Translations under genes and position numbers: made by a program
NCBI RefSeq assembly: GCF_006345805.1
Contig: NC_042999.1
Span: forward strand, 72,230,001 to 72,294,000
Length of the DNA: 64,000 nucleotides
Reading direction: 5' to 3'
DNA from: Octopus sinensis
Lineage: Eukaryota
The notes under the pieces: generated by a model
Told to the model about the DNA's origin: nothing
Seen by the model: the letters and a program-made list of their open reading frames with translations, nothing else
Database searches by the model: none
Part shown: one piece after another, positions 35,461 to 62,360 of the stretch
Layout: every line of letters begins with the position of its first letter
Position numbering within the stretch: position 1 is the first letter of the stretch

Positions 35461-35900
35461 TCTTTATATATATAAAACTGAGAATGTGTGTCTGTCTGTC
35501 TGTCTGTCTGTGTGTTTCCCTAAAACTCGAGAACTACACAACCAATTTCATTCAAATTTTACACATGTCTTACTTAGGGTCCGGGGAGTGTCATCGGCAA
35601 AACAAATTTTGAAATTTTTGCCTAGGGCGAGCCCACAGCAATATCATATCTTCTCCCCTACGATTCCCTAAAACTTGAGAACTACACAACCAATTCCATT
35701 CAAATTTTACACATGCCTTACATAGGGGCCATGTAGTTTCATGGGCAATAAAAATGTTTAACTTCTTGCCTAGAGCGAGCCCATAGCAATATCATATCTT
35801 CTCCACTATTTCAGTATTACGTGTTAAAAGTGAAACAAAAACGTTTCTCTATTTTATGTCAGATACTTTCACTTTAACAATAAAAATAATAATAACAATT
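35461..35900 (+). mobile_element. Helitron-like 5' region with (GTCT)n and a ~145-bp internal tandem duplication
   Basis: Starts A|TCTTTATATATATAAAACTGAG followed by (TCTG)n, the layout of non-autonomous invertebrate Helitrons. Direct repeats at 35518-35658 and 35666-35805. Confidence 0.65.
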
Positions 35901-36049
35901 GAATTATATGTAGTAAGTAATAATTAAAATCAAACTAAAGTATAATATAATCGTAACATAACAAAAGTAAAATAGCAAATTGGTATAAAATTGCATCAAT
36001 GACTTGAACTTGAATAAGTGGTTTCACATAATGGGAATAAATTAAAAAT

Positions 36050-36152
36050 AAAATTAGCGTGCAGAATGGAATAGTCCAATGGATAAAAAATTAAATTAAA
36101 GAAAAGACTATTGTCTATAGTATACATGTAGAGAAAAAAGAGATTTTGAACA
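36050..36152 (+). pseudogene. 5' part of an older LINE ORF1 paralogue (D), interrupted by the array
   Basis: 36104-36151 reads KTIVYSIHVEKKEILN (compare unit A KTVTYRTQDKSTKKLAR) and continues in frame at 55660 as MEKSTFEKCLG. Confidence 0.65.
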
Positions 36153-36290
36153 GCGTGTCGGAAATTTACCTCACGTGTGTTGTATCTGTGAGTAGACGTT
36201 GAAATTTCTTGTGTAAAGTGATTAATATGCGCGCAGGCATTTGCCTCCACGTTTGGAACCTTCTGAAGAAGGTGAATTGACCCTCTAGTC

Positions 36291-37670
36291 ATGGCGACTT
36301 ACGCGGGGGTCACGGGAAAGAATAATAATGATTCGGCAATAATCGTGAAGGATGTTTTCTTTGAGAAAAGTAAAATCAAAAATATGAAAAGCCTATCAAA
36401 AGGGAGGGTGATAGCGTGAAGCTAATCCCCCGCGAAGCAAAGGAGGACAAGGAAAACAAAACGTAACGTATAGAACCCAGGACAAAAGTACAAAGAAACT
36501 GGCAAGAGTGGAGATAGCAGAGATCGAAAAATGTCTGGGAGACATAATGGATAAATCGACCTACGTGAGTAGAGGAAAAAAATTTGGTACCGGTGGAGGT
36601 GAGATGTGCACGGAACAGAAATTGCAGCCTCTCACTGGCTACCACTGTTCTAAGATCGGAAAATTTATAATGTGGCCCTCATACAAGGGAAGAAGAGGGG
36701 TCCGGGTTAAAATCCCGAATATACCCCCAGAAGTAAAAACAGAATGGCTGGCAACAGCTTTCTAGGAGCAGCAGAAAAAAGAGGAGTGAGGGGAATCCTT
36801 TAAGGAGTCCAACGCAGTAAATTGGAGAGGATATGGGGTAGACTGTGTTGTTGATGGCCACAAAAGAGGACATTGAAAGGTTCCCCTATAGAATAGAAAT
36901 CGAAGACGAGAAACCCTCAGTGTAATTGTAGAGGGAAGAAAGCCAAACTGCTACTTGTGCGGGACAAGGGGCACATTAAAAAAGAGTGCCCGTTATATGA
37001 TTCATGGCGGAGTATGAGAAGGAAAATGAAGAAAAGAAGAATACGGGAAATGAAAAAGAAAACATAGAAAAGGAGACAAACCAAGAGAAGGAAATAATAG
37101 TCAACGAAGAAAGAAATAAAAGAAAAGAAAGAAATAGAACCAAAACAGAGTCAGGAAAAGAAAAAAGGAAAAAGAAACAACAGGAAAAACAAGAGAGAGA
37201 ACAGAACCAAACGAAAGAAAAGACGGCACACAAAAAGAAAAAGAAAAGAAACATAAACACAGAAGAAAGAGAAACAGACAAAGAACCAAAAGACAAGAGA
37301 AGGAAGAAGAAAGAAAAGAAGGCAAAAAGAGAGAAGAGAGAAACAAAGAGAGGAGAACAAGGAAGAAATAAGCCCAAAAGAAAAACGAGAGAAAACGTAG
37401 GACGGAACAAGATTACTACAAGTTATAACCTCCATTCCAGCCCCGAAATGAAGGAATTGACATGTAGTATGGAGGGACATGTGTGGGTCAACAGGATGAC
37501 TGATCAGTGGCAGGAGACTGCTCTGATCCCCGAAGAAAGAGTCGCTGAGTTCCTCAGAGCAGCTGGAGAGAGTGTAATTTTTTAACCCGGTTGTTCGAGT
37601 GAAAGAGGGCTGCCTGAGGGCTCAGTGATTGACTTTAGAGACTTGAAAAGTAATTATGGAATACGTGTGA
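36291..37670 (+). CDS. ORF1-like CCHC zinc-knuckle nucleic-acid-binding protein, unit A1 (frameshifted as assembled)
   Basis: ATGGCGACTTAC start. ORF 37004-37585 shows the K/E/R-rich tract and the C-terminal domain in one frame. Confidence 0.75.
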
Positions 37671-38045
37671 GATTGTGAGAGGAGAGAGAAGAAAGAAGAG
37701 AAAAAAGAAAAAAAAATTGTGAACTATAGGTGACGAAAATGTAACCTCTCGATTCCGGGGATCGAGTGGGCATTTGCATCTCATTGTAAATATTCTTTCA
37801 TTTGTCATTTTTATTTTTATTTTTTTCCTTCTTGTCATTTCGCTTTCTTATTTTAAGTTCCCCGATTGTATTGTCCCCTCTATGTTCGCCCCTTGTGGGT
37901 ATAAAAATCAGTGTCGGAATTTACCCACGTGTGTTGTTATCTGTGATTAGACGTTGAAATTTTGTTGTGTAAAGTGATTAATATCGCGCAGGCATTTGCC
38001 TCCACGTTTGGAAACCTCTGAAGAAGGTGAATTGACCCTCTAGTC

Positions 38046-39439
38046 ATGGCGACTTACGCGGGGGTCACGGGAAAGAATAATAATGATTCGGCAATAATCG
38101 TGAAGGATGTTTTCTTGAGAAAAGTAAAATCAAAGAATATGAAAAGCTATTCAAAGGGAGGGTGATAGCGTGAAGCTAATCCCCCCCGCGAAAGCAAAGG
38201 AGGACAAGGAAAACAAACTGTAACGTATAGAACCCAGGACAAAAGTACAAAGAAACTGGCAAGAGTGGAGATAGCAGAGATCGAAAAATGTCTGGGAGAC
38301 ATAATGGATAAATCGACCTACGTGAGTAGAGGAAAAAATTTGGTACGGTGGAGGTGAGATGTGGCAACGGAAGAAATTGCAGCCTCACTGGCTACCACTG
38401 TTCTAAGAGCGGAAACATTTATAATGTGGCCCTCATACAAGGGAAGAAGAGGGGTCCGGGTTAAAATCCCGAATATACCCCCAGAAGTAAAAACAGAATG
38501 GCTGGCAACAGCTATTCTAGGAGCAGCAGAAGAGGAAGTGGAGGTGGAATCCTTAAGGAGTCCAACGCAGTAAATTGGAGAGGATATGGGGTAGAACTGT
38601 GTTTGATGGCCACAAAAGAGGACATTGAAAGGTTCCCCTATAGAATAGAAATCGAAGACGAGAAAACCCTCAGTGTAATTGTAGAGGGAAGAAGAAAGCC
38701 AAACTGCTACTTGTGCGGGACAAGGGGGCACATTAAAAAAGAGTGCCCGTTATATGAATTCATGGCGGTATGAGAAGGAAAATGAAGAAAAGAAGAATAC
38801 GGGAAATGAAAAAGAAAACATAGAAAAGGAGACAAAACACAACAAGAAAGGAAATAATAAGTCAACGAAGGAAAAAGAAATAAAAGAAAAGAAAGAAATA
38901 GAACCAAAACAGAGTCAGGAAAAGAAAAAGGAAAAGAAAACAACAGGAAAAAAACAAGAGAGAGAACAGAACCAAACGAAAAGAAAAGACGGCACACAAA
39001 AAGAAAAAGAAAAGGAACATAAAACACGAGAGAAAGAGAGAACAGACAAAGAACCAAAAAGACAAGAGAAGGAAGAAGAAAGAAAAGAAGGCAAAAGAGA
39101 AAGAGAGAAACAAAGAGAGGAGAACAAGGAAGAATAAGCCCGAAAAGAAAAACGAGAGAAAACGTAGGACGGAAACAAGATTACTACAAGTTAATAACCT
39201 TCCATTCCAGCCCCGAAATGAAGGAATTGACATGTAGTATGGAGGGACATGTGTGGGTCAACAGGATGACTGATCAGTGGCAGGAGACTGCTCTGATCCC
39301 CGAAGAAAGAGTCGCTGAGTTCCTCAGAGCAGCTGGAGAGAGTGTAATTTTTTACACGGGTGTTCGAGTGAAAGAGCGGCTGCCTGAGGGCTCAGTGATT
39401 GACTTTAGAGACTTGAAAAGTATTATGGAATACGTGTGA
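38046..39439 (+). CDS. ORF1-like zinc-knuckle protein, unit A2 (frameshifted as assembled)
   Basis: Same sequence as the other A units. Contains CYLCGTRGHIKKEC and ends SIMEYV*. Confidence 0.78.
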
Positions 39440-39824
39440 GATTGTGAGAGGAGAGAGAAGAAAGAAGAGAAAAAAGAAAAAAAAAAATTGTGAACTATAG
39501 GTGACGAAAATGTAACCTCTCGATTCCGGGGATCGAGTGGGCATTTGCATCTCATTGTAAATATTCTTTCATTTGTCATTTTTATTTTTATTTTTTCCCT
39601 TCTTGTCATTTCGCTTTCTTATTTTAAGTTCCCCGATTGTATTGTCCCCTCTATGTTCGCCCCTTGTGGGTAGTAATAAAATCAGCGTGTCGGAAATTTA
39701 CCCACGTGTGTTGTTATCTGTGATTAGACGTTGAAATTTTGTTGTGTAAAGTGATTAATATCGCGCAAGGCATTTGCCTCCACGTTTGGAAACCTTCTGA
39801 AGAAGGTGAATTGACCCTCTAGTC

Positions 39825-41218
39825 ATGGCGACTTACGCGGGGGTCACGGGAAAGAATAATAATGATTCGGCAATAATCGTGAAGGATGTTTTCTTTGAGA
39901 AAAGTAAAATCAAAGAATATGAAAAGCTATTCAAAAGGGAGGGTGATAGCGTGAAGCTAATCCCCCCCGCGAAAGCAAAGGAGGACAAGGAAAACAAAAC
40001 TGTAACGTATAGAACCCAGGACAAAAGTACAAAGAAACTGGCAAGAGTGGAGATAGCAGAGATCGAAAAATGTCTGGGAGACATAATGGATAAATCGACC
40101 TACGTGAGTAGAGGAAAAAAATTTGGTACGGTGGAGGTGAGATGTGCAACGGAAGAAATTGCAGCCTCACTGGCTACCACTGTTCTAAGAGCGGAAACAT
40201 TTATAATGTGGCCCTCATACAAGGGAAGAAGAGGGGTCCGGGTTAAAATCCCGAATATACCCCCAGAAGTAAAAACAGAATGGCTGGCAACAGCTATTCT
40301 AGGAGCAGCAGAAGAGGAAGTGGAGGTGGAATCCTTTAAGGAGTCCAACGCAGTAAATTGGAGAGGATATGGGGTAGAACTGTGTTTGATGGCCACAAAA
40401 GAGGACATTGAAAGGTTCCCCTATAGAATAGAAATCGAAGACGAGAAAACCCTCAGTGTAATTGTAGAGGGAAGAAAGCCAAACTGCTACTTGTGCGGGA
40501 CAAGGGGGCACATTAAAAAAGAGTGCCCGTTATATGAATTCATGGCGGAGTATGAGAAGGAAAATGAAGAAAAGAAGAATACGGGAAATGAAAAAGAAAA
40601 CATAGAAAGGAGACAAAACAACAAGAGAAAGGAAATAATATCAACGAAGGAAAAAGAATAAAAGAAAAGAAAGAAATAGAACCAAAACAGAGTCAGGAAA
40701 AGAAAAGGAAAAGAAGACAACAGGAAAAAAACAAGAGAGAGAACAGAACCAAACGAAAAGAAAAGACGGCACACAAAAAGAAAAAGAAAAGGAACATAAA
40801 ACACGAGAGAAAGAGAGAACAGACAAAGAACCAAAAGACAAGAGAAGGAAGAAGAAAGAAAAGAAGGCAAAAAGAGAGAAAGAGAGAAACAAAGAGAGGA
40901 GAACAAGGAAGAAATAAGCCCGAAAAGAAAAACGAGAGAAAACGTAGGACGGAAACAAGATTACTACAAGTTAATAACCTTCCATTCCAGCCCCGAAATG
41001 AAGGAATTGACATGTAGTATGGAGGGACATTGTGGGTCAACAGGATGACTGATCAGTGGCAGGAGACTGCTCTGATCCCCGAAGAAAGAGTCGCTGAGTT
41101 CCTCAGAGCAGCTGGAGAGAGTGTAATTTTTTACACGGGTGTTCGAGTGAAAGAGCGGCTGCCTGAGGGCTCAGTGATTGACTTTAGAGACTTGAAAAGT
41201 ATTATGGAATACGTGTGA
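39825..41218 (+). CDS. ORF1-like zinc-knuckle protein, unit A3 (~465-aa consensus; frameshifted as assembled)
   Basis: A 278-aa open frame from MATYAGVTG through CYLCGTRGHIKKEC (CX2CX4HX4C), then a basic tract and the C-terminal domain ending SIMEYV*. Confidence 0.82.
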
Positions 41219-41599
41219 GATTGTGAGAGGAGAGAGAAGAAGAAGAGAAAAAAAAAAAAAAAAATTGTGAACTATAGGTGACGAAAATGTAACCTCTCGA
41301 TTCCGGGGATCGAGTGGGCATTTGCATCTCATTGTAAATATTCTTTCATTTGTCATTTTTATTTTTATTTTTTCCCTTCTTGTCATTTCGCTTTCTTATT
41401 TTAAGTTCCCCGATTGTATTGTCCCCTCTATGTTCGCCCCTTGTGGTAGTAATAAAATCAGCGTGTCGGAAATTACCCACGTGTGTTGTTATCTGTGATT
41501 AGACGTTGAAATTTTGTTGTGTAAAGTGATTAATATCGCGCAAGGCATTTGCCTCCACGTTTGGAAACCTTCTGAAGAAGGTGAATTGACCCTCTAGTC

Positions 41600-42997
41600 A
41601 TGGCGACTTACGCGGGGGTCACGGGAAAGAATAATAATGATTCGGCAATAATCGTGAAGGATGTTTTCTTTGAGAAAAGTAAAATCAAAGAATATGAAAA
41701 GCTATTCAAAAGGGAGGGTGATAGCGTGAAGCTAATCCCCCCCGCGAAAGCAAAGGAGGACAAGGAAAACAAAACTGTAACGTATAGAACCCAGGACAAA
41801 AGTACAAAGAAACTGGCAAGAGTGGAGATAGCAGAGATCGAAAAATGTCTGGGAGACATAATGGATAAATCGACCTACGTGAGTAGAGGAAAAAAATTTG
41901 GTACGGTGGAGGTGAGATGTGCAACGGAAGAAATTGCAGCCTCACTGGCTACCACTGTTCTAAGAGCGGAAACATTTATAATGTGGCCCTCATACAAGGG
42001 AAGAAGAGGGGTCCGGGTTAAAATCCCGAATATACCCCCAGAAGTAAAAACAGAATGGCTGGCAACAGCTATTCTAGGAGCAGCAGAAGAGGAAGTGGAG
42101 GTGGAATCCTTTAAGGAGTCCAACGCAGTAATTGGAGAGGATATGGGGTAGAACTGTGTTTGATGGCCCAAAAAGAGGACATTGAAAGGTTCCCCTATAG
42201 AATAGAAATCGAAGACGAGAAAACCCTCAGTGTAATTGTAGAGGGAAGAAAGCCAAACTGCTACTTGTGCGGGACAAGGGGGCACATTAAAAAGAGTGCC
42301 CGTTATATGAATTCATGGCGGAGTATGAGAAGGAAAATGAAGAAAAGAAGAATACGGGAAATGAAAAAGAAAACATAGAAAGGAGACAAAACAACAAGAG
42401 AAAGGAAATAATAAGTCAACGAAGGAAAAGAAATAAAAGAAAAGAAAGAAATAGAACCAAAACAGAGTCAGGAAAAGAAAAAGGAAAAGAAACAACAGGA
42501 AAAAAACAAGAGAGAACAGAACAAACAAAAGAAAAGAAAAGACGGCACACAAAAGAAAAAGAAAAGGAACATAAAACACGAGAGAAAGAGAGAACAGACA
42601 AAGAAAAAAAAGACAAGAGAAGGAAGAAGAAAGAAAAGAAGGCAAAAAGAGAGAAAGAGAGAAACAAAGAGAGGAGAACAAGGAAGAAATAAGCCCGAAA
42701 AGAAAACGAGAGAAAACGTAGGACGGAAAACAAGATTACTACACAAGTTAATAACCTTCCATTCCAGCCCCCGAAATGAAGGAATTGACATGTAGTATGG
42801 AGGGACATGTGTGGGTCAACAGGATGACTGATCAGTGGCAGGAGACTGCTCTGATCCCCGAAGAAAGAGTCGCTGAGTTCCTCAGAGCAGCTGGAGAGAG
42901 TGTAATTTTTTACACGGGTGTTCGAGTGAAAGAGCGGCTGCCTGAGGGCTCAGTGATTGACTTTAGAGACTTGAAAAGTATTATGGAATACGTGTGA
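41600..42997 (+). CDS. ORF1-like zinc-knuckle protein, unit A4 (frameshifted as assembled)
   Basis: ORF pieces 41600-42151, 42160-42378, 42315-42692 and 42776-42997 tile the consensus protein. Confidence 0.8.
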
Positions 42998-43380
42998 GAT
43001 TGTGAGAGGAGAGAGAAGAAAGAAGAGAAAAAAGAAAAAAAAATTGTGAACTATAGGTGACGAAAATGTAACCTCTCGATTCCGGGGATCGAGTGGGCAT
43101 TTGCATCTCATTGTAAATATTCTTTCATTTGTCATTTTTATTTTTATTTTTTCCCTTCTTGTCATTTCGCTTTCTTATTTTAAGTTCCCCGATTGTATTG
43201 TCCCCTCTATGTTCGCCCCTTGTGGGTAGTAATAAAATCAGCGTGTCGGAAATTTACCCACGTGTGTTGTTATCTGTGATTAGACGTTGAAATTTTGTTG
43301 TGTAAAGTGATTAATATCGCGCAAGGCATTTGCCTCCACGTTTGGAAACCTTCTGAAGAAGGTGAATTGACCCTCTAGTC

Positions 43381-44774
43381 ATGGCGACTTACGCGGGGGT
43401 CACGGGAAAGAATAATAATGATTCGGCAATAATCGTGAAGGATGTTTTCTTTGAGAAAAGTAAAATCAAAGAATATGAAAAGCTATTCAAAGGGAGGGTG
43501 ATAGCGTGAAGCTAATCCCCCCCGCGAAAGCAAAGGAGGACAAGGAAAACAAAACTGTAACGTATAGAACCCAGGACAAAAGTACAAAGAAACTGGCAAG
43601 AGTGGAGATAGCAGAGATCGAAAAATGTCTGGGAGACATAATGGATAAATCGACCTACGTGAGTAGAGGAAAAAAATTTGGTACGGTGGAGGTGAGATGT
43701 GCAACGGAAGAAATTGCAGCCTCACTGGCTACCACTGTTCTAAGAGCGGAAACATTATAATGTGGCCCTCATACAAGGGAAGAAGAGGGGTCCGGGTTAA
43801 AATCCCGAATATACCCCCAGAAGTAAAAACAGAATGGCTGGCAACAGCTATTCTAGGAGCAGCAGAAGAGGAAGTGGAGGTGGAATCCTTTAAGGAGTCC
43901 AACGCAGTAAATTGGAGAGGATATGGGGTAGAACTGTGTTTGATGGCCACAAAAGAGGACATTGAAAGGTTCCCCTATAGAATAGAAATCGAAGACGAGA
44001 AAACCCTCAGTGTAATTGTAGAGGGAAGAAAGCCAAACTGCTACTTGTGCGGGACAAGGGGCACATTAAAAAAGAGTGCCCGTTATATGAATTCATGGCG
44101 GAGTATGAAAGGAAAATGAAGAAAAGAAGAATACGGGAAATGAAAAAGAAAACATAGAAAGGAGACAAAACAACAAGAGAAAGGAATAATAAGTCAACGA
44201 AGGAAAAGAAATAAAAGAAAAGAAAGAAATAGAACCAAAACAGAGTCAGGAAAAGAAAAGGAAAAAAACAACAGGAAAAAAAAAACAAGAGAGAGAACAG
44301 AACCAAACGAAAAGAAAAGACGGCACACACAAAAAGAAAAAGAAAAGGAACATAAAACACGAGAGAAAGAGAAACAGACAAAGAACCAAAAAGACAAGAG
44401 AAGGAAGAAGAAAGAAAAGAAGGCAAAAAGAGAGAAAGAGAGAAACAAAGAGAGGAGAACAAGGAAGAAATAAGCCCGAAAAGAAAACGAGAGAAAACGT
44501 AGGACGGAAACAAGATTACTACAAGTTAATAACCTTCCATTTCAGCCCCGAAATGAAGGAATTGACATGTAGTATGGAGGGACATGTGTGGGTCAACAGG
44601 ATGACTGATCAGTGGCAGGAGACTGCTCTGATCCCCGAAGAAAGAGTCGCTGAGTTCCTCAGAGCAGCTGGAGAGAGTGTAATTTTTTACACGGGTGTTC
44701 GAGTGAAAGAGCGGCTGCCTGAGGGCTCAGTGATTGACTTTAGAGACTTGAAAAGTATTATGGAATACGTGTGA
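43381..44774 (+). CDS. ORF1-like zinc-knuckle protein, unit A5 (frameshifted as assembled)
   Basis: ATG at 43381. ORF pieces 43506-43760, 43697-44119 and 44553-44774. Confidence 0.78.
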
Positions 44775-45154
44775 GATTGTGAGAGGAGAGAGAAGAAAGA
44801 AGAGAAAAAAGAAAAAAAAAATTGTGAACTATAGGTGACGAAATGTACCTCTCGATTCCGGGGATCGAGTGGGCATTTGCATCTCATTGTAAATATTCTT
44901 TCATTTGTCATTTTTATTTTTATTTTTTCCCTTCTTGTCATTTCGCTTTCTTATTTTAAGTTCCCCGATTGTATTGTCCCCTCTATGTTCCCCTTGTGGG
45001 TAGTAATAAAATCAGCGTGTCGGAAATTTACCCACGTGTGTTGTTATCTGTGATTAGACGTTGAAATTTTGTTGTGTAAAGTGATTATATCGCGCGCAGG
45101 CATTTGCCTCCACGTTTGGAAACCTTCTGAAGAAGGTGAATTGACCCTCTAGTC

Positions 45155-46544
45155 ATGGCGACTTACGCGGGGGTCACGGGAAAGAATAATAATGCGGCAA
45201 TAATCGTGAAGGATGTTTTCTTTGAGAAAAGTAAAATCAAAGAATATGAAAAGCTATTCAAAGGGAGGGTGATAGCGTGAAGCTAATCCCCCCCGCGAAA
45301 GCAAAGGAGGACAAGGAAAACAAAACTGTAACGTATAGAACCCAGGACAAAAGTACAAAGAAACTGGCAAGAGTGGAGATAGCAGAGATCGAAAAATGTC
45401 TGGGAGACATAATGGATAAATCGACCTACGTGAGTAGAGGAAAAAAATTTGGTACGGTGGAGGTGAGATGTGCAACGGAAGAAATTGCAGCCTCACTGGC
45501 TACCACTGTTCTAAGAGCGGAAACATTTATAATGTGGCCCTCATACAAGGGAAGAAGAGGGGTCCGGGTTAAAATCCCGAATATACCCCCAGAAGTAAAA
45601 ACAGAATGGCTGGCAACAGCTATTCTAGGAGCAGCAGAAGAGGAAGTGGAGGTGGAATCCTTTAAGGAGTCCAACGCAGTAAATTGGAGAGGATATGGGG
45701 TAGAACTGTGTTTGATGGCCACAAAAGAGGACATTGAAAGGTTCCCCTATAGAATAGAAATCGAAGACGAGAAAACCCTCAGTGTAATTGTAGAGGGAAG
45801 AAAGCCAAACTGCTACTTGTGCGGGACAAGGGGGCACATTAAAAAAGAGTGCCCGTTATATGAATTCATGGCGGAGTATGAGAAGGAAAATGAAGAAAAG
45901 AAGAATACGGAAATGAAAAAGAAAACATAGAAAAGGAGACAAAACAACAAGAGAAAGGAAATAATAAGTCAACGAAGGAAAAAGAAATAAAAGAAAAGAA
46001 AGAAATAGAACCAAAACAGAGTCAGGAAAAGAAAAAGGAAAAAGAAACAACAGGAAAAAAACAAGAGAGAACAGAACCAAACGAAAAGAAAAGACGGCAC
46101 ACAAAAGAAAAAGAAGGAACATAAAACACGAGAGAAAGAGAGAACAGACAAAGAACCAAAAAGACAAGAGAAGGAAGAAGAAAGAAAAGAAGGCAAAAAG
46201 AGAGAAAGAGAGAAACAAAGAGAGGAGAACAAGGAAGAAATAAGCCCGAAAAGAAAAACGAGAGAAAACGTAGGACGGAAACAAGATTACTACAAGTTAA
46301 TAACCTTCCATTCCAGCCCCGAAATGAAGGAATTGACATGTAGTATGGAGGGACATGTGTGGGTCAACAGGATGACTGATCAGTGGCAGGAGACTGCTCT
46401 GATCCCCGAAGAAAGAGTCGCTGAGTTCCTCAGAGCAGCTGGAGAGAGTGTAATTTTTTACACGGTGTTCGAGTGAAAGAGCGGCTGCCTGAGGGCTCAG
46501 TGATTGACTTTAGAGACTTGAAAAGTATTATGGAATACGTGTGA
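45155..46544 (+). CDS. ORF1-like zinc-knuckle protein, unit A6 (frameshifted as assembled)
   Basis: ATG at 45155. The 217-aa open piece 45277-45930 includes the knuckle. Confidence 0.78.
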
Positions 46545-46925
46545 GATTGTGAGAGAGAGAGAAGAAGAAGAGAAAAAAGAAAAAAAAATTGTGAACTATA
46601 GGTGACGAAAATGTAACCTCTCGATTCCGGGGATCGAGTGGGCATTTGCATCTCATTGTAAATATTCTTTCATTTGTCATTTTTATTTTTATTTTTTTTT
46701 TTTTCTTGTCATTTCGCTTTCTTATTTTAAGTTCCCCGATTGTATTGTCCCCTCTATGTTCGCCCCTTGTGGGTAGTAATAAAATCAGCGTGTCGGAAAT
46801 TTACCACGTGTGTTGTTATCTGTGATTAGACGTTGAAATTTTGTTGTGTAAAGTGATTAATATCGCGCAGGCATTTGCCTCCACGTTTGGAAACCTTCTG
46901 AAGAAGGTGAATTGACCCTCTAGTC

Positions 46926-48306
46926 ATGGCGACTTACGCGGGGGTCACGGGAAAGAATAATAATGATTCGGCAATAATCGTGAAGGATGTTTTCTTTGAG
47001 AAAAGTAAAATCAAAGAATATGAAAAGCTATTCAAAAGGGAGGGTGATAGCGTGAAGCTAACCCCCCCCGCGAAAGCAAAGGAGGACAAGGAAAACAAAA
47101 CTGTAACGTATAGAACCCAGGACAAAAGTACAAAGAAACTGGCAAGAGTGGAGATAGCAGAGATCGAAAAATGTCTGGGAGACATAATGGATAAATCGAC
47201 CTACGTGAGTAGAGGAAAAAATTTGGTACGGTGGAGGTGAGATGTGCAACGGAAGAATTGCAGCCTCACTGGCTACCACTGTTCTAAGAGCGGAAACATT
47301 TATAATGTGGCCCTCATACAAGGGAAGAAGAGGGGTCCGGGTTAAAATCCCGATATACCCCCAGAATTAAAAACAGAATGGCTGGCAACAGCTATTCTAG
47401 GAGCAGCAAAAGAGGAAGTGGAGGTGGAATCCTTTAAGGAGTCCAACGCAGTAAATGGAGAGGATATGGGGTAGAACTGTGTTTGATGGCCACAAAAGAG
47501 GACATTGAAAGGTTCCCCTATAGAATAGAAATCGAAGACGAGAAAACCCTCAGTGTAATTGTAGAGGGAAGAAAGCCAAACTGCTACTGTGCGGGACAAG
47601 GGGGCACATTAAAAAAGGTGCCCGTTATATGAATTCATGGCGGAGTATGAGAAGGAAATGAAGAAAAGAAAATACGGGAAATGAAAAAGAAAACATAGAA
47701 AAGAGACCAAAACAACAAGAGAAAGGAAATAATAAGTCACGAAGGAAAAAGAATAAAAGAAAGAGAAATAGAACCAAAACAGAGTCAGAAAGAAAAGGAA
47801 AAAGAAACAACAGGAAAAAAACAAGAGAGAGAACAGAACCAAACGAAAAGAAAAGACGGCACACAAAAAGAAAAAGAAAAGGAACATAAAACACGAGAGA
47901 AAGAGAGAACAGAAAAGAACCAAAAACAAGAGAAGGAAGAAGAAAGAAAAGAAGCAAAAAGAAGAAAGAGAGAACCAAAGAGAGGAGAACAAGGAAGAAA
48001 TAAGCCCGAAAAGAAAACGAGAGAAAACGTAGGACGGAAACAGATTACTACAAGTTAATAACCTTCCATTCCAGCCCCGAAATGAAGGAATTGACATGTA
48101 GTATGGAGGGACATGTGTGGGTCAACAGGATGACTGATCAGTGGCAGGAGACTGCTCTGATCCCCGAAGAAGAGTCGCTGAGTTCCTCAGAGCAGCTGGA
48201 GAAGAGTGTAATTTTTTACACGGGTGTTCGAGTGAAAAGCGGCTGCCTGCCTGAGGGCTCAGTGATTGACTTTAGAGACTTGAAAAGTATTATGGAATAC
48301 GTGTGA
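46926..48306 (+). CDS. ORF1-like zinc-knuckle protein, unit A7 (frameshifted as assembled)
   Basis: ORF pieces 46926-47240 and 48082-48306 match the A consensus. Confidence 0.75.
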
Positions 48307-48547
48307 GATTGTGAGAGGAGAGAGAAAAAGAAGAGAAAAAGAAAAAAAAATTGTGAACTATAGGTGACGAAAATGTAACCTCTCGATTCCGGGGATCGAG
48401 TGGGCATTTGCATCTCATTGTAAATATTCTTTCATTTGTCATTTTTATTTTTATTTTTTCCCTTCTTGTCATTTCGCTTTCTTATTTTAAGTTCCCCGAT
48501 TGTATTGTCCCCTCTATGTTCGCCCCTTGTGGGTAGTAATAAAATCA

Positions 48548-50449
48548 GCGTGTCGGAATCTATCCACATGTGTTGTGAGTTATTTTGTATGTGAAAATTG
48601 GAAAAAAGACGGTTAAAAGTTGTCAAAAATTGAATCGCGCGAGGCGTTTTGCCGCTGCGTGTTTGAACCTTTTATAGAAGGTGTGTCGACCCTCAAGTCA
48701 TGGGACTTACGCGGGGTCGCCACAACAAAAGTGACGAGTCACTTAGAATAAAAGAAGTGTTCTTTAGAAAGAACAATTGAAAGAATACGAGAAGTTCGTC
48801 AAAAGGGAGGGTGATAGCGTGAAGCTGGTCGCCTGTGGAAACATAGAAGAGAAAAATAACATCACGATAACGTATAGAACGCAAGATAGAAACACGAGAA
48901 AACTGGTGAGAGTGACGATTGAAGAAATAGAGAAATGTCTGGGGGACATCATGAAAAAGCGACTTTTGTAGACAGAGGAAAGAAATATGGTACGGTGGAG
49001 GTGAGATTGCGCAACAAGGAAGTTGCGGCCTCATTGGCTTCCACTGTCCTGAAGCGGAAAATTTCACCATGTGGCCGACTTATAAAGGAAGACGAGGGTA
49101 CGGGTAAGATCCCAAAGGTACCCCCAAATATTAAAACAGAATGCTGTAACAGCCATTATTGGAGCAGCAAAAGAGGAAGTAGAAATAGGGTCAATTAAGG
49201 AGACGAACGTTGTAAATTGGAAGGGATTCGGAGTCGAGTTGTGGCTGATGGCCACAATGGAAGACATCGAAAGATTTCCCCTCCAAATAGAAATAGAAAA
49301 CGAGAAGACAATTATGTAATAGTGGAGGCAGAAAACCGAACTGCTACCTGTGCGGATCAAGAGGGCACATAAAAAAGGAATGTCCGCTGTATGAATTCAC
49401 AGCGGAGCAAAAAGAGACACAAAGGGAGAGAAGGAAAACGAACACGAAGGAAAGAACAGCGAAAACAAGGAAAAGGAAATAACGGAGAAACAACAAGAGA
49501 AGGGAAGTAACAGCGCACTGAAGGAAAATGAAACAAAGGGAAGAAGATAGTAGAAAAGGAGCAAAATTCACAGGGGCAGAAGTAGTGGAGAAGAGCCAAG
49601 GCAGAAGCAGAGAAAGAAAAGGAAAGTACATAAAGGAAAGAGAAAAAGCAGAAAAGAACAAGAGAAGGAACAGAACAAGAGAAAGGAAAAGATGGTATGC
49701 AAAAAGGAAAGAACAACAGAAAGGAACTTAAGGCACAGGGTAGAGAGACGGCAGACAAAGAGCCAAAAGACAAGAAGAGGAAAAAGAAAGAAGAGAAAGC
49801 AAAAAGAGAGAAAGAGAGAAACCGAGGAGGAAAAAAAGAGGAAGTAAGTCCTAAGAGAAAAACTAGAGAAAACGTAAGTACGAATAGAAAATTAAAATAC
49901 TATGGAACGTTTGATCCATCACAGCACTGTGAGGAGATGGAATATTTAATAAGCGTAACAAACGGATATACGTGGGTCAGGATGGGCACCGAATGGAAAG
50001 AAACAGGTGCACTCGTCCACGAGAACGACGCCGAGGCGTTCATCGAGGCAGCTGCAAGAACGTGTCAAAACATATGAAATGCCGACTTACAAGGTGGCCT
50101 CGAACGATGGAAGTTTACTCAGATTTGGTAGACATAATGGAGTATATATAAAGAAAGGTATTGTGAAAACTTTTAATTTGGAAATGATAAAAGAACTTTA
50201 AATTCGGAAAAAAAAAAAAAAAAAATTTTGAACTTTGTAAAACTTTTGTGAAATGTATGTTGAAAATGTATAAATGTTTTATTTGGAAAATATTGTTGAC
50301 GAATAAAAAATAAATGACGAAATGTAACCGCTCGATTTCGGGGATCGAGTGGGCATTGCACCACATTGTACAAACTTCATAATTCATTATTCATTTTCCC
50401 GATTGTATTGTCCCATCTATGTAGCCCCTAGTGGGTTATAATAAAACAA
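48548..50449 (+). mobile_element. Divergent ORF1-only non-autonomous unit B (1.9 kb)
   Basis: Starts GCGTGTCGGAATC and ends CCCGATTGTATTGTCCCATCTATGTAGCCCCTAGTGGGTTATAATAAAACAA. Collinear with, but clearly diverged from, unit A. Confidence 0.9.
48700..50201 (+). CDS. ORF1-like zinc-knuckle protein, paralogue B (frameshifted as assembled)
   Basis: KEYEKFVKREGDSVKL, EKCLGDIM, RGKKYGTVEVR, knuckle CYLCGSRGHIKKEC, basic tract, and C-terminal domain NGYTWVRMGTEWKETGALV. Confidence 0.8.
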
Positions 50450-50677
50450 GCGTGTCGGAAATCATTTTTTTTGCGTTATTAGTAAGTTGATATATTTTTG
50501 CTCTCGTACTGTTGTCTCTGTTATTATATACTGTTGGTCTACCTGTTTTGTCTATTGTTGTCTAACTGACGAAGTCAGCCTTCGCGCGAGGACTTCGCGT
50601 TGGTGTTCCCCCCTCAGTGGGGGAAAACTAAAATTAATTTTGATTTACCAAAGGCTTGTTAAAGCCATTTGTTCAAG

Positions 50678-52018
50678 ATGGAGTCCCCCATCTCTTATTC
50701 GCCCGTGACGAGCGAGGATGAATACCCGGCGTTGTCGCCAAGTAAAAAAGAGGCGTTGTCGCCAAGAAAAAAGAGGCGGCGTCGCCCAAGAAAATGGAAA
50801 ACCAGTACCAGCATCAACTCCAGCAAAAAAATTCGCTGAAGTGGCTGGGAAAAGATCAAAAAAATAAATATAGAAAATTTTAAAAAATTTGCAGACTGTG
50901 TAAAAAAAGAAGGCACAGAAGTGACTGTGGCCACAAACATACAAATACATGACGATATAGAAAAAGAATAATATATAAAACTTACGACACAACGAGAAAA
51001 TTATCAAAAAATCGAAGAAAAAAAATAGAGTTTTGTCTAAAACCTTTTATGGATAAAATAACGTATATAAACAGAGGAAAAAGATACGGCACAGTGGAGG
51101 TGCGTTTTACTACGGAGGAGATAGCGAAGAAACTATCGATGGAGCCAATCAAAGCGGAAAACATTGTCTTACTACCATTGTATAAAGGAAAAAGGACGTC
51201 GAAAATTTCAATGAACAACATACGCCAGAGGCAGATGCTGAATGTCTGGTGGCAGCAGTGATGGTAGGTCTGGAGGAAAAAATAAACATCCTCCAGGCCA
51301 CAGTGGAGGAAGAGGAGTTTTGGAAAGAGCAAAAAATAGTGATAGCCATTCAGGCGGAGGTGCAAACACTGGAAGAAATTCCAGAAACGGTAAAGATTAG
51401 TGAAGACGAGAAAATAACAGTTTTCGTGGAGGGCAGGAAGCCGAGGTGCTTCGGCTGCGGCAAGAAGGGTCATGTAAGGGCGGAATGCCAACCCCAACCC
51501 AAACCGCAGGAGGCACCTAAGCCAAAAGAAAAAGAAGATAATGTGTCAGCAAAAGCAGCGTCGGACGACCCAGAAGGGAAGACTGAAGGTGTGGAGGTGA
51601 CGGTGACAGCAGAACCAGCGGCGGAGGAAAAAAGAGCGAGAAAAGATAAATGAGGAGGGGTGAGCAAAAATTACCGGAAGAAAAAAAGAAAAACGGAAAC
51701 CCCCCTCCCAGAGTAATTTTAAAAAAGAAAAAAGAGTCAATGAACTCGTATATGGCCGTAAAGGCAGGAAATAGCAGACTCGGAAACGTGTTGGCAGCCA
51801 TGGCCAAAGTGGAGAAAGTAGTGAAAAAAAACGACTTTGTAATTTACAGAATAGGCCGGAAGGATTACGGGCGGATAAAGTCAGAATTCTTCCATGACGG
51901 AGGCCCACTTAGATTGGATGTGACATCTCCACATATATTCGAGGGCCTACGTCAGACTCCCCCACGAGGCCCAGAAAAAGAGTTAGAAGAACAAGAGAAA
52001 ACCGAACCACTGATATAA
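50678..52018 (+). CDS. LINE ORF1 (CCHC zinc knuckle; frameshifted as assembled)
   Basis: MESPISYSP start, then MDKITYINRGKRYGTVEVRF and VEGRKPRCFGCGKKGHVRAEC. The stop is at 52016-52018, just before ORF2. Confidence 0.82.
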
Positions 52019-52025
52019 GTAAGTA

Positions 52026-55000
52026 ATGGATTACATTATGTTGGTGTTTGAATGTGCGCGGCCTGGGAGCAGGCTGGAAGCAAGGTCGCTTCATGATATA
52101 TCAGGTCGCTTAATTTAGATGTTATTGTTGCTACAGAAACCCGGTTAGAGGGGCCAAGAGGTCTACTCCCGCTGTTTGACGGCTACGAGAGTTTTTTCTC
52201 TCCTGGCAGTCCTACAGGCGGGAGTGGGGTGTTGGTCCTATTAAAAAGAAACCGGGTTTCTGAGAAAAAGTTAATTTTTGCAGATCCAGAAGGTAGGCTG
52301 GTCGTCATGGATTTGACGTTCAGTAATGGTAAAGTTATCAGACTGGTTGCAATTTACACACCCAACCATACAGGGCAAAGTGATTATTTTCGTGAACTAG
52401 AAAACTTTCTTGGTACTTCGCATTCATTAGTGGTGCTAGGAGACTTTAACACAATTTGCAAAGCGGATGTAGATTATGTTGGCTCGTGTCCAGATAGAAA
52501 AGGCAACAGTGGCTTCATGGAACTGCTAAGCCGCTTTGAGCTAGCAGATCCTTATAGGCTGGAATTCCGAACGCTCCATTGTGGACATGGTCAAACAGCG
52601 ACGGATCTTCCAGGTCATATTTAGATAGAATACTAATTAGAAAAGTAGACAGTAAAAATAGCTAAGTGTCCACAGTTTTACCCGATCAGCTACAGTGATC
52701 ATAAAATGGTCACTTGTAAGCTTGACATAGATAAGGTAAAAATAGAGGATCCGGTTCTGGAAACTTAATACGTCCTTTTGGCGATTATTAGGAGTACAAA
52801 GACCGGATTAGGAATATAATTCAGAGGGCACTATCTGGTACCATCATTAATAACAAATGGTGGTACGCCCTCAAACGAGCCATCAAGTTTGAGTCTATTA
52901 GATATAGCATAGGAGTAGTGGCTAGAGAGGCTAGAAGGGAAACTACTTAGTTAAGGAATTAGAGGAAGCCATGAAAACTGGCTCTGCGGCTCAGGTGGCG
53001 TCCTAGAGACTGGTGTAAACCAGCACCTCGAGGCCAAACACATGGGCTGCATTGTCAGGGCTAGAATCCGCCATATGGGATGTGAAGGAATCAACGCCGT
53101 AAGATGGGCCCGAGTGGTGGAAGCTCAGCATGGTAACGATGCCACGATTCGATCTTTGACGAACCAACAAGGTGAGTTGATAAACGAAACCGAGGAGATG
53201 TGTGAGGCCTTTCAGGAGCACTTCGCTCAGCTTTTCGGTGAGTGCGGCGGACTGGATAGGAGAGAGGCCTTTACGGACCTACTCGACGGGCTGCCGCGCT
53301 TATCGGGGCGAGATGCGGAGGGCTGTGAAGGCCAATCACGCCTGAGGAGGTGGTTGAGGCAATGGCGGACTGCGGCGCGGGCAAGGCGCCGGGTTTGGAT
53401 GGTCTACCCTATGAGTTATATAAGAGTATGCCAGACTTGTTCGGGCACCTACTGGCGGAGGTCTATGCGAACTGGCAGCAGAACGGGCTTATACCCAGAT
53501 CTGTGCGCCGGGGAGTAGTGACTCTCGTCAGAAAGGACCCGAGCAAGGGGGAGTGCATTGATAATTTCAGGCCCATCACTCTGCTAAACACAGAGTTGAA
53601 GATTTTGGCCAAAGTGTTATCGAAAAGATTGGCGCGTGTCGCGGATGGTCTGATCGGAGAGGCACAGACATGTGCCGTTCCGGGCAGATCCATTCAGGAT
53701 AATCTCCATATAATGCGGTACACTATAGAGGGATATAATAGTGATTCTGGCAAGGGTGGGGCACTGGTCCATTTAGACCAATCTAAAGCTTTTGATAGGG
53801 TCGACCATCGTTACCTGGTATCTGCCCTGGCACAGTTCGGGCTGAGCCTTGGCTTCCTCAGGTGGATTATCCAAATTTATGATAACATCGACTCGGTAGT
53901 TCGGGTGAACGGCTTCTTGTCGAAGCCGTTCAAAATCAAACGCTCGGTTCGTCAAGGGTGTCCGCTCTCCCCGCTTTTGTACGTGATGGCTCTTCAGCCA
54001 TTATTGCGAAAACTGAGCGGCATCCCGAGACAGCCAGGTAATTGAAAATCAGTGTCAGCGTACGCGGATGACATCACCATCATCGTAACCGAAATGGACC
54101 ACCTATGTAATGTAGGCAAGGCCATAGAGGTTTACGAGACGGTGACAGGAGCAAAAGTTAATCGCGAAAAGTCAGTCGGCTTGCAACTGGGCACCTGGAG
54201 AGGCAAGTCGATGCCTCCTGACAGCGTCGTGGGACGTTGGACGGAGGGTCCGATTAAACTGCTAGGGGTCTGGTTCGGTCCAGACCTCCAAATAGAGAAG
54301 AATTGGGGCGAGGTAACGAGCAAGGTGGCTGCAGTAGCCAAGACCTGGTCTTGGCGGTGGCTATCCCTGAAAGGGGGGCGGAGGTGGCCAATGTGTTTAT
54401 CGCATCGGTTATCACCTACCGCCTTTCCGTCGTTCCTTGCCCTGATTCGTGGTTGATCAAGTTGGAAGACAGCTCTTCTACTTCTTGTGGAAGGGCGGGA
54501 AACCACTTGTGAAACGCTCTACTTGCTGTCAACAACCGTTAAAGGGTGGGCTAGGGATGCCTTGGCTGATGATGCGCAGACATGCGCTGAGGTTAAGACA
54601 TCTGTGGCTCTACCTGGATGGTGAACGGGTGTGGTCTTCGCTAGCAAAACTGATGTTTCCCAAGTTCACTAGTTTCGGTGGATGGGAAACCTGGCTGAAT
54701 CGTAGATCGAAACTTGGTACTTGGTACACGGAGTGTCGCAAGGCTCTCCTGCTATTCCGTCGCTCGGGCAACGCCTGCGGTGGGGGTTCCACCACATTCT
54801 TCTATAGAGGGTTGGTAGAGGCGGAATGTGAAGATACCTTGGGGGAAACCCTAGGTCTCGACGATAATCAGCTGGCCAGTCTGTTCCGACGTACGTTCGA
54901 GCCGAGGACACTGGACAACTTCCAGAAGTCTCTGGCATGGCAATGCTACAGAGGAGCTCTACCTGTTCGGGATAAACGCGCAAGGCACGGTGGCCAAGAC

Positions 55001-55411
55001 AGTCCGATATGTCCAAGATGCGGGCGGGATAGGGAAACCGTCCCGCACGCTATTGTTCATTGTCCGGACGTGTCTGAGGTGTGGGTTTATGCCGAACACC
55101 TGTTGTCAGGTACACGAAGAGTACAGCTGTCGACTGAGTCGATTACAAAAATTGACCCACCGGATTTCCTCGTGAATGAAGGTAAGTTTCGTTTTCTCGT
55201 TGTAGTAGCAATTGCGAAAGAGGTGATATGGAAGACGAGAATGAAAGGTGTACAGTCAGGCAAGTTCATCTCCGGCCCTGGTTTGATGAAGTATTTCATC
55301 TTTCACCTGAAAAGGAAGATAGGGCTGGAGAGAATATGCCTGACTAGGAGAGTGTATGAAGAACGATGGAAGGATGTAGCACGAAAGTTGCGAGTGAAAG
55401 ATACAACATAA
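52026..55411 (+). CDS. LINE ORF2: APE endonuclease, reverse transcriptase, C-terminal zinc finger (frameshifts and one in-frame TGA as assembled)
   Basis: APE motifs LNVRGL, AIYTPN, VLGDFN, YLDRI and SDH. RT motifs APGLDG, FRPITLLN, LDQSKAFDRV, VRQGCPLSPLLY and YADD (54061-54072). C-terminal CPRCGRDRETVPHAIVHC. Confidence 0.92.
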
Positions 55412-55656
55412 ATGTAATACCAAGCGCAACCAAAAGTATCAGTGGGGAGGCGGGGCTCGTGGGGTCCGAGCTAAAACCGCACCCACTCCACCCGTAATGT
55501 CTTCCGGTCTGTCCCATCATTCGATTTCTGTCCATTTATAGTAATTCATGAAAATTTTTAAATTCGATTTATTGTAAAAACCCATTCGTGTGTCTGACCC
55601 CATCATCAGATTGTATTGTCCCATCTATGTTCGCCCCTTGTGGGTAATAATAAAAC

Positions 55657-55960
55657 AACATGGAGAAAAGCACCTTCGAAAAGTGTCTTGGTGCGACTAT
55701 GAAAGGTATCTATCAGAGGCGGTAAATTCGCCACAAAAGAAGCAAGGTTCGAGTCAACGGAGCGTGCAAGGGAGTACTCGACTCGAACTTGCAAAGTGGA
55801 AATATTTTATTTTTACCATTATATCTGGGACGTAAGACGTCCCGGAAAAAATATTTAAATCCCCAAAGAAGTAGAGGTTGGCTGGATTGTAGCCACACTT
55901 CTATACAAAAGGGAGGACAAGATACAATTGATTGAAATTACAAGAGACGGGCCTACAATT
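55657..55960 (+). pseudogene. 3' part of the older ORF1 paralogue D (target of the array)
   Basis: With frameshifts it reads MEKSTFEKCLGATMK / IRGGKFATKEARFESTERAREYST / ILFLPLYLGRKTSR / IPKEVEVGWIVATLL. This is collinear with EKCLGDIM / RGKKFGTVEVR / LLPLYKGKRTSK / IPPEVKTEWLATAIL in units A and C. Confidence 0.8.
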
Positions 55961-56098
55961 CCAGTCTGTTATATATTTTGAGTATTGTTATCACTAGCGA
56001 TATCAAGATATAACTTTGTATTTTGTATTTTATGTGTATATGTATATATATAGATGTACATGTAATATGTACACATATATATACACATATATACATGC

Positions 56099-56140
56099 AC
56101 TAGCACTATGACCCGGCAACGACGAGTCTTTAATGCTAGT
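56099..56140 (+). mobile_element. Helitron-like 3' terminus (GC hairpin plus CTAG|T)
   Basis: GACCCGGCAACGACGAGTC imperfect hairpin followed by TTTAATGCTAG|T. Confidence 0.55.
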
Positions 56141-61885: not shown

Positions 61886-62360
61886 ATAACATGAGGGACT
61901 AAAGCCATCTGAATATGGCTAGGGACAGGGCAGGGTGGTGGGGGTGTTACTGTTGCATTTAGCCCCAGGCGAACATCGACGTCGCCAGATAGGCTTGACA
62001 CCATCACGGTGTCCTTTAACCTGCAAAGGGAGATAATTCCCCGATGAAGCGGAAACCACACACGGACCATGGTTTCAAGGTGTATTGCCTATCGTCAACG
62101 TGTGGTAGGCCTCCGCTTCCTCGACGAAATCTCACTCTGCAGGGTGGTGGGGGTGTTACTGTTTCATTAGCCCCAGGCGAACATCGACGTCGCCAGATAG
62201 GCTTGACACCATCACGGTGTCCTAGGTTAAAGGACACCGTGATGGTGTCAAGCCTATCTGGCGACGTCGATGTTCGCCTGGGGCTAAATGCAACAGTAAC
62301 ACCCCCACCACCCTGCCCTGTCCCTAGCCATATTCAGATGGCTTTAGTCCCTTATGTTAT
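61886..62360. mobile_element. Young foldback element: ~137-bp near-perfect inverted termini plus an internal partial third copy
   Basis: 61886-62022 is the near-exact reverse complement of 62224-62360. 62139-62223 directly repeats the inner part of the left arm. Confidence 0.85.

What the first reader, a model, noticed from the sequence alone, without database searches (positions are those of the whole stretch)
36104..55960. The whole array has one short TSD and splits an older cousin ORF1 in frame
Seen: left junction ...GAGATTTTG-AACA|GCGTGTCGG (36149-36152) and right junction ...AATAAAAC|AACA-TGGAGAAAAGC (55657-55660). Removing the array and one AACA gives ATT TTG AAC ATG GAG AAA, which reads KTIVYSIHVEKKEILNMEKSTFEKCLG and is homologous to the ORF1s inside the array. 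The duplication is 2-4 bp depending on where C's end is placed. Known: many Tx1-group elements are target-sequence specific. Inference: the empty site can be reconstructed, which is consistent with a single integration event. The family may preferentially target ORF1 of related retroelements.
Basis: partly seen in the sequence, partly recalled or inferred. Interest (0 to 1): 0.72.

Follow-up and report, generated by a model that had tools for sequence, protein, structure and literature searches.

The report
LINE stacks inside a Helitron site
In this octopus genome a family of LINE jumping genes and its enzyme-less partners land again and again at one exact base inside a small, abundant Helitron-like repeat that carries a dead scrap of a related LINE gene, and they pile up there head to tail, likely in successive rounds and possibly because that spot lends them a promoter.

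Summary
The array (7 ORF1-only A units, one ORF1-only B, one full LINE C) does split a cousin ORF1 fragment. The 4-bp AACA duplication, the in-frame join and the single event do not hold. The flank is a ~1.2-kb non-autonomous Helitron-like repeat (D). All 43 parsed empty copies are 2 bp longer than the proposed join. Targeting is real and strong: 998 empty and 117 occupied sites by exact match, and 29 of 60 loci examined sit at this one base. True duplications are 11-23 bp. In arrays their place is taken by an 11-16-nt linker, which can be carried on the RNA. A units are nearly identical to each other; C and B are older, so the array was likely stacked at its 5' end in rounds. Some full-length copies begin 5-8 nt inside D, about 30 nt after a TATA-like motif, hinting at a borrowed promoter (untested). 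Close precedent: crocodilian Tx1-Mar/SINEU in Mariner-N4. The scan noted similar systems, and one Helitron nest, on other DNA of this genome.

The parts
35461..36152 (+). Left part of repeat D, a non-autonomous Helitron-like element: starts A|TC, (GTCT)n, two ~148-bp units, then the start of the ORF1 relic, ending GAACA at the insertion site
36100..36152 (+). Left piece of the ORF1 relic. Intact copies have TATAAA 37 nt before the site (33 of 43); this copy has indels there
   Evidence: this piece alone scores 9.6 bits, not significant
36153..36164 (+). Linker GCGTGTCGGAAA, in the place of the target duplication (8 of 11 identical to the target's downstream bases). It heads all nine units (damaged at A2, one base short at B) and was found only in three arrays of the genome
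36153..48547 (+). Seven ORF1-only A units of ~1,775 bp (starts 36153, ~37910, 39685, 41461, 43241, 45015, 46788); ORF1 with zinc knuckle, no ORF2, family 3' tail
   Evidence: interior units 0.00% private substitutions
48548..50449 (+). ORF1-only B unit; ORF1 59% identical to A and 35% to C; same 3' tail
50450..55658 (+). Full-length L1/Tx1-type LINE C: ORF1 (~50680-52018, zinc knuckle), ORF2 (~52027-55411: APE, RT, zf-RVT), no poly(A). Frameshifted in this assembly; the majority sequence of 13 copies has an open 1,132-codon ORF2 frame
55659..56139 (+). Right part of D: begins CATGG at the site, ORF1 relic to ~55955, subterminal hairpin 56110-56128, ends CTAG|T
55955..55962 (+). Second insertion site in D (TTCCAGTC), used at two other loci by an older C subfamily; empty here
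   Evidence: C2:101.79M, C2:141.91M; joints

Best explanation
This is a nest of one L1/Tx1-type LINE (C) and eight ORF1-only partners (B, A1-A7) at the single base that this family targets inside an abundant Helitron-like repeat carrying a dead ORF1 fragment, and it was likely built by repeated insertion at the 5' end. Inferred mechanism: C's ORF2 protein nicks a short YA^CRT motif and primes reverse transcription exactly at the shared 3' tail of C, A, B or E RNA. A second nick 11-17 nt further on makes the duplication. A full-length RNA begins with a near copy of the landing site, so its 5' end joins by homology and rebuilds a target in front of the new copy; the next element lands there. The linker is either the duplicated 5' end of the previous unit or a tag carried on the RNA from an earlier site. 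C and B came first and the A run later, possibly as one or more multi-unit blocks. The short motif cannot by itself explain the choice of D. The most likely added cue is that transcripts start in D's left arm and run through into the downstream target, giving RNA-target pairing at both ends (inferred, about 0.4).
For: Shown. Site specificity: 117 occupied and 998 empty sites by exact pattern, controls 0; 29 of 60 loci and 65 of the first 100 of 466 listed A/B/C 3' ends lie at this base. Hosts are independent D copies with no shared private variants except one base at -6 in two of them, so this is not hitch-hiking. Duplications of 11-17 bp in 6 of 6 short off-target copies printed, and 13-23 bp in longer ones. 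Age order: the older member is 3' in 6 of 6 arrays holding two clearly different-aged members of one family; window A 9 substitutions over ~10 kb against C 29 over ~4.3 kb, p 4e-9 with approximate site counts. Upstream units repeat the 5' 11-16 nt of the unit behind them. RNA-borne 5' leader: 4 of 4 informative full-length copies away from the canonical site start with D's last 5-8 bases plus linker. RNA intermediate: a sister C copy has 130 of 144 private changes A>G. Precedent: tandem SINEU-3 sandwiching a TSD, read as sequential insertion (PMC4494074, section 14).
Against: 28 of 60 loci are elsewhere, so this is strong preference, not exclusivity. Blocks can move or recur together: a 3.7-kb B-E block is 98.9% identical on two chromosomes, and an A-A pair has a D-private variant at both ends but not inside, so not every unit is a separate event. 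No age order among the four B units at C3:81.2M; mixed at C2:86.7M; slightly reversed at C3:148M. Variant linkers are also common in short arrays, so 'rare tags make long arrays' is not supported. The window's D copy lacks the TATA motif (many indels in this region). The assembly has many indel errors here, and collapse or polishing of the A run cannot be excluded.
Confidence: 0.78

Rival explanations
1. One integration event: the RT started on C RNA and jumped to B and then A RNAs, or copied one ~19.5-kb read-through RNA from a source array absent from this assembly.
For: C is the 3'-most unit in 16 of 16 mixed arrays on C1-C3. Three arrays share the A(6-8)-B-C layout and a linker found nowhere else (25 of 40 pattern hits; 14 of the other 15 checked and unrelated). 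Multi-unit blocks exist.
Against: The three C copies differ by 1.2-2.3% and the B copies by 1.3-1.7%, while A units differ by 0.05-0.19%. One C is hyper-edited and its upstream B is not. No near-identical source of the window's C: best other hit 1590 against 1626 bits over 901 bp, nearest fetched copy 0.60%.
Confidence: 0.12
2. C, B and one or a few A units inserted by TPRT; the run of seven A units then arose at DNA level (unequal crossover, conversion between arrays) or is partly an assembly artefact.
For: A units are identical apart from indel-type errors. Two of the three arrays lie about 100 kb apart in the same orientation.
Against: The third array is on another contig with the same A sub-lineage, and the D left arms are not shared beyond ~10 nt from the site. 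Mixed-age and mixed-family runs elsewhere need insertion. This rival changes only how the A run grew, not the targeting.
Confidence: 0.2
3. The family's ancestral target is the ORF1 gene of a related LINE (a LINE that preys on cousin LINEs); D captured that target and multiplied it.
For: The site lies inside an ORF1-homologous stretch, and a second site used by an older subfamily lies near the relic's other end.
Against: The aligned position in A ORF1 has a different DNA sequence. None of 60 loci is at that position in A, B, C or E. The relic is about equally distant from A, C and E (25-40% identity). A live parent of the relic was not searched for.
Confidence: 0.15
4. Chance nesting, or copying of one old insertion along with the Helitron.
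For: D is abundant (at least 1,115 sites).
Against: About 1,100-2,300 target bases in 2.7 Gb hold 29 of 60 loci. Occupants differ in family, subfamily and 5' truncation point, and host copies are independent.
Confidence: 0.01

Closest known systems
Crocodilian Tx1-Mar LINEs and SINEU-1/2/3 in Mariner-N4_AMi; Xenopus Tx1L in Tx1D; Tx1-9_AMi in Harbinger (Kojima 2015, PMC4494074; passages and section 14 read)
   Same: A LINE and non-autonomous partners prefer one site in an abundant non-autonomous DNA transposon; tandem copies sandwich a ~15-bp TSD and are read as sequential insertions; some copies carry 5' extensions from the target and may be transcribed from it.
   Different: The target here is Helitron-like and holds a LINE ORF1 relic ('Helitron' has 0 occurrences in that paper). 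The partners are ORF1-only elements, not snRNA-headed SINEs. Arrays reach 9-13 units and are young (0-1%). Linker variants are heritable.
HAL1 (half-L1) of mammals (PMC5753468, passages)
   Same: Non-autonomous, encodes ORF1 only.
   Different: A, B and E ORF1s are only 34-36% identical to C's, so they are long-separate lineages sharing a 3' tail. They are site-specific and stack with the partner; the passages read say nothing of that for HAL1.
Drosophila HeT-A/TART/TAHRE telomeric arrays (bioRxiv 10.1101/782904, passages)
   Same: Head-to-tail mixed arrays of an ORF1-only element with RT-coding partners; short 5' tags from upstream sequence where transcription starts; tandems of one subfamily.
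   Different: Those add to chromosome ends and use a promoter in the neighbour's 3' UTR. Here arrays are interstitial, need an endonuclease cut with a duplication, and the informative leaders come from the host repeat.
R1Bm/SART1Bm priming by RNA-target pairing (PMC7265360, passages; the R1Bm paper itself was not held)
   Same: APE-type site-specific LINEs whose RNA 3' end may anneal to the nicked target; R1Bm is stated to need downstream target sequence for accurate reverse transcription. The family here has precise ends without poly(A).
   Different: A different clade and target; pairing is inferred here, not tested.
Non-autonomous Helitrons (defining features recalled, not from a call)
   Same: 5' TC, 3' CTAG, subterminal hairpin, insertion between A and T, captured fragment.
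   Different: No RepHel-coding partner or pre-insertion site was identified.

Membership tests
L1-group non-LTR retrotransposon (C) | ORF1 plus ORF2 with APE endonuclease, RT and C-terminal zinc motif | tested here: met
   Pfam Exo_endo_phos, RVT_1, zf-RVT; open 1,132-codon frame in the majority of 13 copies
L1-group non-LTR retrotransposon (C) | RT closer to L1 than to R2 | tested here: met
   PDB search: L1 ORF2p E 5e-30, R2 8e-21; only these two kinds were matched
L1-group non-LTR retrotransposon (C) | Variable TSD, 5' truncation, fixed 3' end | tested here: met
Tx1 clade | RT phylogeny groups with Tx1L, Keno, Kibi | not testable with these tools
   No named Tx1 sequence among the 120 homologues listed; atlas search unavailable
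Tx1 clade | Target preference (more than 20% of flanks in one repeat, the criterion in PMC4494074) | tested here: met
   29 of 60 loci
Tx1 clade | CCHC knuckle in ORF1 (recalled as typical) | tested here: met
   zf-CCHC in A (E 6e-5); weak in C (E 0.02, below cut-off)
HAL1-like ORF1-only elements (A, B, E) | ORF1 only, own 5' and 3' ends, dispersed copies | tested here: met
HAL1-like ORF1-only elements (A, B, E) | Derived by deletion from the partner LINE | tested here: inconclusive
   ORF1 only 34-36% identical to C; a closer autonomous parent was not searched for
Non-autonomous Helitron (D) | 5' TC and 3' CTRR, between A and T | tested here: met
   A before and T after in 11 of 12 rows with both ends parsed, one row a duplicate; rows were selected on these termini
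Non-autonomous Helitron (D) | Subterminal hairpin near the 3' end | tested here: met
   GACCCG..CGGGTC arms 7 nt before CTAG in most copies; the window's copy has a mismatch and did not fold so
Non-autonomous Helitron (D) | No TSD | tested here: inconclusive
   Most flanks are (TA)n, so 2-14-bp apparent repeats appear; no pre-insertion site found; one copy has A|T with no TA repeat
Non-autonomous Helitron (D) | Autonomous RepHel partner with the same ends | not tested
   no search made

The most novel reading that the evidence does not exclude
The LINE family has no working promoter of its own and aims at the transcription start of a TATA-like promoter that lies inside a LINE ORF1 scrap spread by a Helitron. 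Only the front unit of each stack is transcribed from it, so every newcomer takes pole position and pushes the enzyme-coding LINE away from its promoter. Short landing-site tags on both ends of the RNA steer copies back to arrays with the same tag, a heritable RNA address.
Probability: 0.25. Interest if true: 0.75.

Novelty: new variant of a known kind. Interest (0 to 1): 0.5.

Why it matters
It gives a young, countable three-level system (Helitron host, LINE, ORF1-only hyperparasites) with about 1,000 empty and over 100 filled copies of one site in one genome. That makes it possible to test how an APE-type LINE with only a 5-base cut preference reaches single-base targeting: by protein, by RNA-target pairing or by promoter position. 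The searches made found no paper describing a Helitron as target of a site-specific LINE, or this family in cephalopods (listings, with passages read for two hits; open-access library only; Repbase reports not searchable). The principle of Tx1 elements stacking in a DNA transposon is in print, which limits the novelty.

Tried and rejected
4-bp AACA TSD and in-frame join: rejected. Helitron transposition with the array as cargo, or segmental duplication, for the three look-alike arrays: rejected, hosts and flanks differ. Recent whole-array copying among them: rejected on C and B distances. 'Rare linker gives long arrays': 7 of 8 arrays of five or more units have mostly variant linkers, but so do many short ones and a 9-unit array is mostly canonical; inconclusive. 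A broad 3'-tail pattern (8,714 hits) mostly caught a SINE-like family and was dropped for the census. Expression: no RNA holder listed; junctions inside the array were not examined in sequencing runs. Contigs of four runs laid on the right junction show both the C tail and D, with loose ends matching the empty site in two runs; one record (X15 no. 13) crosses the junction with under 31 letters on one side, so it does not count as bridging. APE domain gave no PDB hit. Atlas unavailable. Christensen 2000 and Anzai 2005 were not held. Supplements of PMC4494074 (target figures) were not read and may list further targets.

Full report
Anatomy. Bases 36153-55658 hold nine head-to-tail units: A1-A7 (~1,775 bp), B (1,902 bp) and C (5,209 bp). 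C carries ORF1 and an ORF2 with APE, RT and zf-RVT; its RT is closer to L1 than to R2 among solved structures, and the majority of 13 copies gives an open 1,132-codon frame. A and B encode ORF1 only (59% identical to each other, 35-36% to C). All share a ~50-nt 3' tail with no poly(A) and start with an 11-16-nt linker. Homologues are named from Octopus and Argonauta. The assembly has many homopolymer indels here.

The flank is a repeat, not a lone old ORF1. The right flank matched 2,280 candidates. Of the 30 best loci, 17 were empty and 13, including the window, were filled at the same base by C-type, A-type or a third ORF1-only element, E. Intact copies are 0.9-1.2 kb, start A|TC, contain (GTCT)n and a 148-bp duplication, and end with a hairpin and CTAG|T: a non-autonomous Helitron by recalled criteria. 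Inside lies about 350 bp of ORF1 homology (E 4e-8; 44.3 bits against at most 21.2 in 200 shuffles) with frameshifts shared by the copies.

The TSD claim fails. The window's left flank plus right flank equals the intact site. Real duplications are longer: 11, 14, 16, 13, 16 and 17 bp in six short off-target copies, 13-23 bp in longer ones. At D the duplicated bases form the linker. Where a D copy has a private variant the linker can repeat it (CCTGG at all three junctions at C2:153.26M). In the window the linker differs from D's own bases at 3 of 11 positions, so it did not come from this target.

Targeting. Exact patterns gave 998 empty sites, 117 filled sites and 466 A/B/C 3' ends, with reversed-pattern controls of 0-1; all are lower bounds, and the window itself is missed through one substitution. 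The first 100 listed ends (contigs C1-C3) fall into 60 loci: 29 at the canonical base (window included), 2 at a second site in D, 1 ambiguous, 28 elsewhere. Off-target sites share only YA^CRT, with exceptions, and most such copies are 5'-truncated, whereas most copies in D are full length. Some off-target loci belong to older subfamilies with other flanks.

Order of events. The window's linker occurs in three arrays only: 25 of 40 genome-wide hits; 14 of the other 15 were inspected and are unrelated. Their D hosts are independent. Their A units differ by 0.05-0.19%, their B units by 1.3-1.7% and their C units by 1.2-2.3%. In the window interior A units have no private substitution, the two outer A units 4 each, B 5 in 1,288 sites and C 19 in 4,551 (63 C, 42 A and 33 B sequences, some fetched twice). 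No close source of this C was found. In 6 of 6 arrays with clearly different-aged members of one family the older is 3'; exceptions among similar-aged units are listed under evidence against. This fits stacking at the rebuilt 5' site. C is 3'-most in 16 of 16 mixed arrays, which also fits template jumping from C RNA, but the age gap argues against that here unless the source array is missing from the assembly. Blocks do sometimes move together, so the A run may have arrived in fewer than seven steps.

How D is chosen (inferred). A 5-base motif is far too common to put half of all loci at one base. Four of four informative full-length copies away from the canonical site (C3:89.76M, C10:78.6M, C3:113.9M, one at C3:1.18M) begin with D's last 5-8 bases and a linker; four others were uninformative because of microhomology or a long duplication. 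TATAAA lies 37 nt before the site in 33 of 43 empty copies and 33-41 nt before it in 42 of 43, about 30 nt before those leader starts. This was noticed after the fact in AT-rich DNA, and the window's copy lacks it. Precise ends without poly(A) suggest priming on read-through RNA, as stated for R1Bm in PMC7265360 (passages). None of this was tested on RNA.

Comparison. Kojima 2015 (PMC4494074; passages and section 14) describes Tx1-Mar LINEs and SINEU partners preferring Mariner-N4_AMi, tandem copies sandwiching a TSD, and 5' extensions from the target. That is the same logic. New here are the Helitron-like target with a LINE ORF1 relic, HAL1-like partners (PMC5753468, passages), long young arrays and heritable linkers resembling HeT-A tags (10.1101/782904, passages). 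A recent Octopus vulgaris repeat annotation counts 13 recently active L1-Tx1 families and has no occurrence of 'nested' or 'target' (PMC13282606, passages). Tx1 clade membership is likely but no tree was possible. Earlier notes of this scan describe sister lineages targeting SINEs and ribozyme repeats, and one nest in a Helitron; they are unchecked leads.

Verdict. New variant of a known kind, interest 0.5.

Noticed in passing
G000:C3:72168215-72173430 (L093): A C copy with 130 of 144 private substitutions A>G, nearly all in its first ~2.2 kb; likely an ADAR hyper-edited RNA copied back into the genome. The B unit upstream is not edited.
   Followed up: partly
L221-L250: About 8,200 of 8,714 hits of the family's 3' tail motif appear to belong to a SINE-like repeat (30 inspected, one of them a related LINE); several sit in front of the same downstream repeat sequence.
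   Followed up: partly
L148-L152, L157, L281, L283, L285, L292: Element E (1.68 kb, ORF1-only) joins D's left arm 9-12 bp upstream of the site in every such copy seen, removing the front target; later elements then insert 13-16 nt inside E.
   Followed up: partly
window 55955; L307, L309: A second site in D, near the end of the ORF1 relic, is used by an older C subfamily.
   Followed up: no
L319-L320, L333, L317: A C subfamily (~91% identical) has a different recurring 3' flank starting ACTGAATACT, suggesting another target repeat.
   Followed up: no
window 61886-62360: A near-perfect 137-bp inverted repeat with an 86-bp internal direct repeat, possibly a small TIR element.
   Followed up: no
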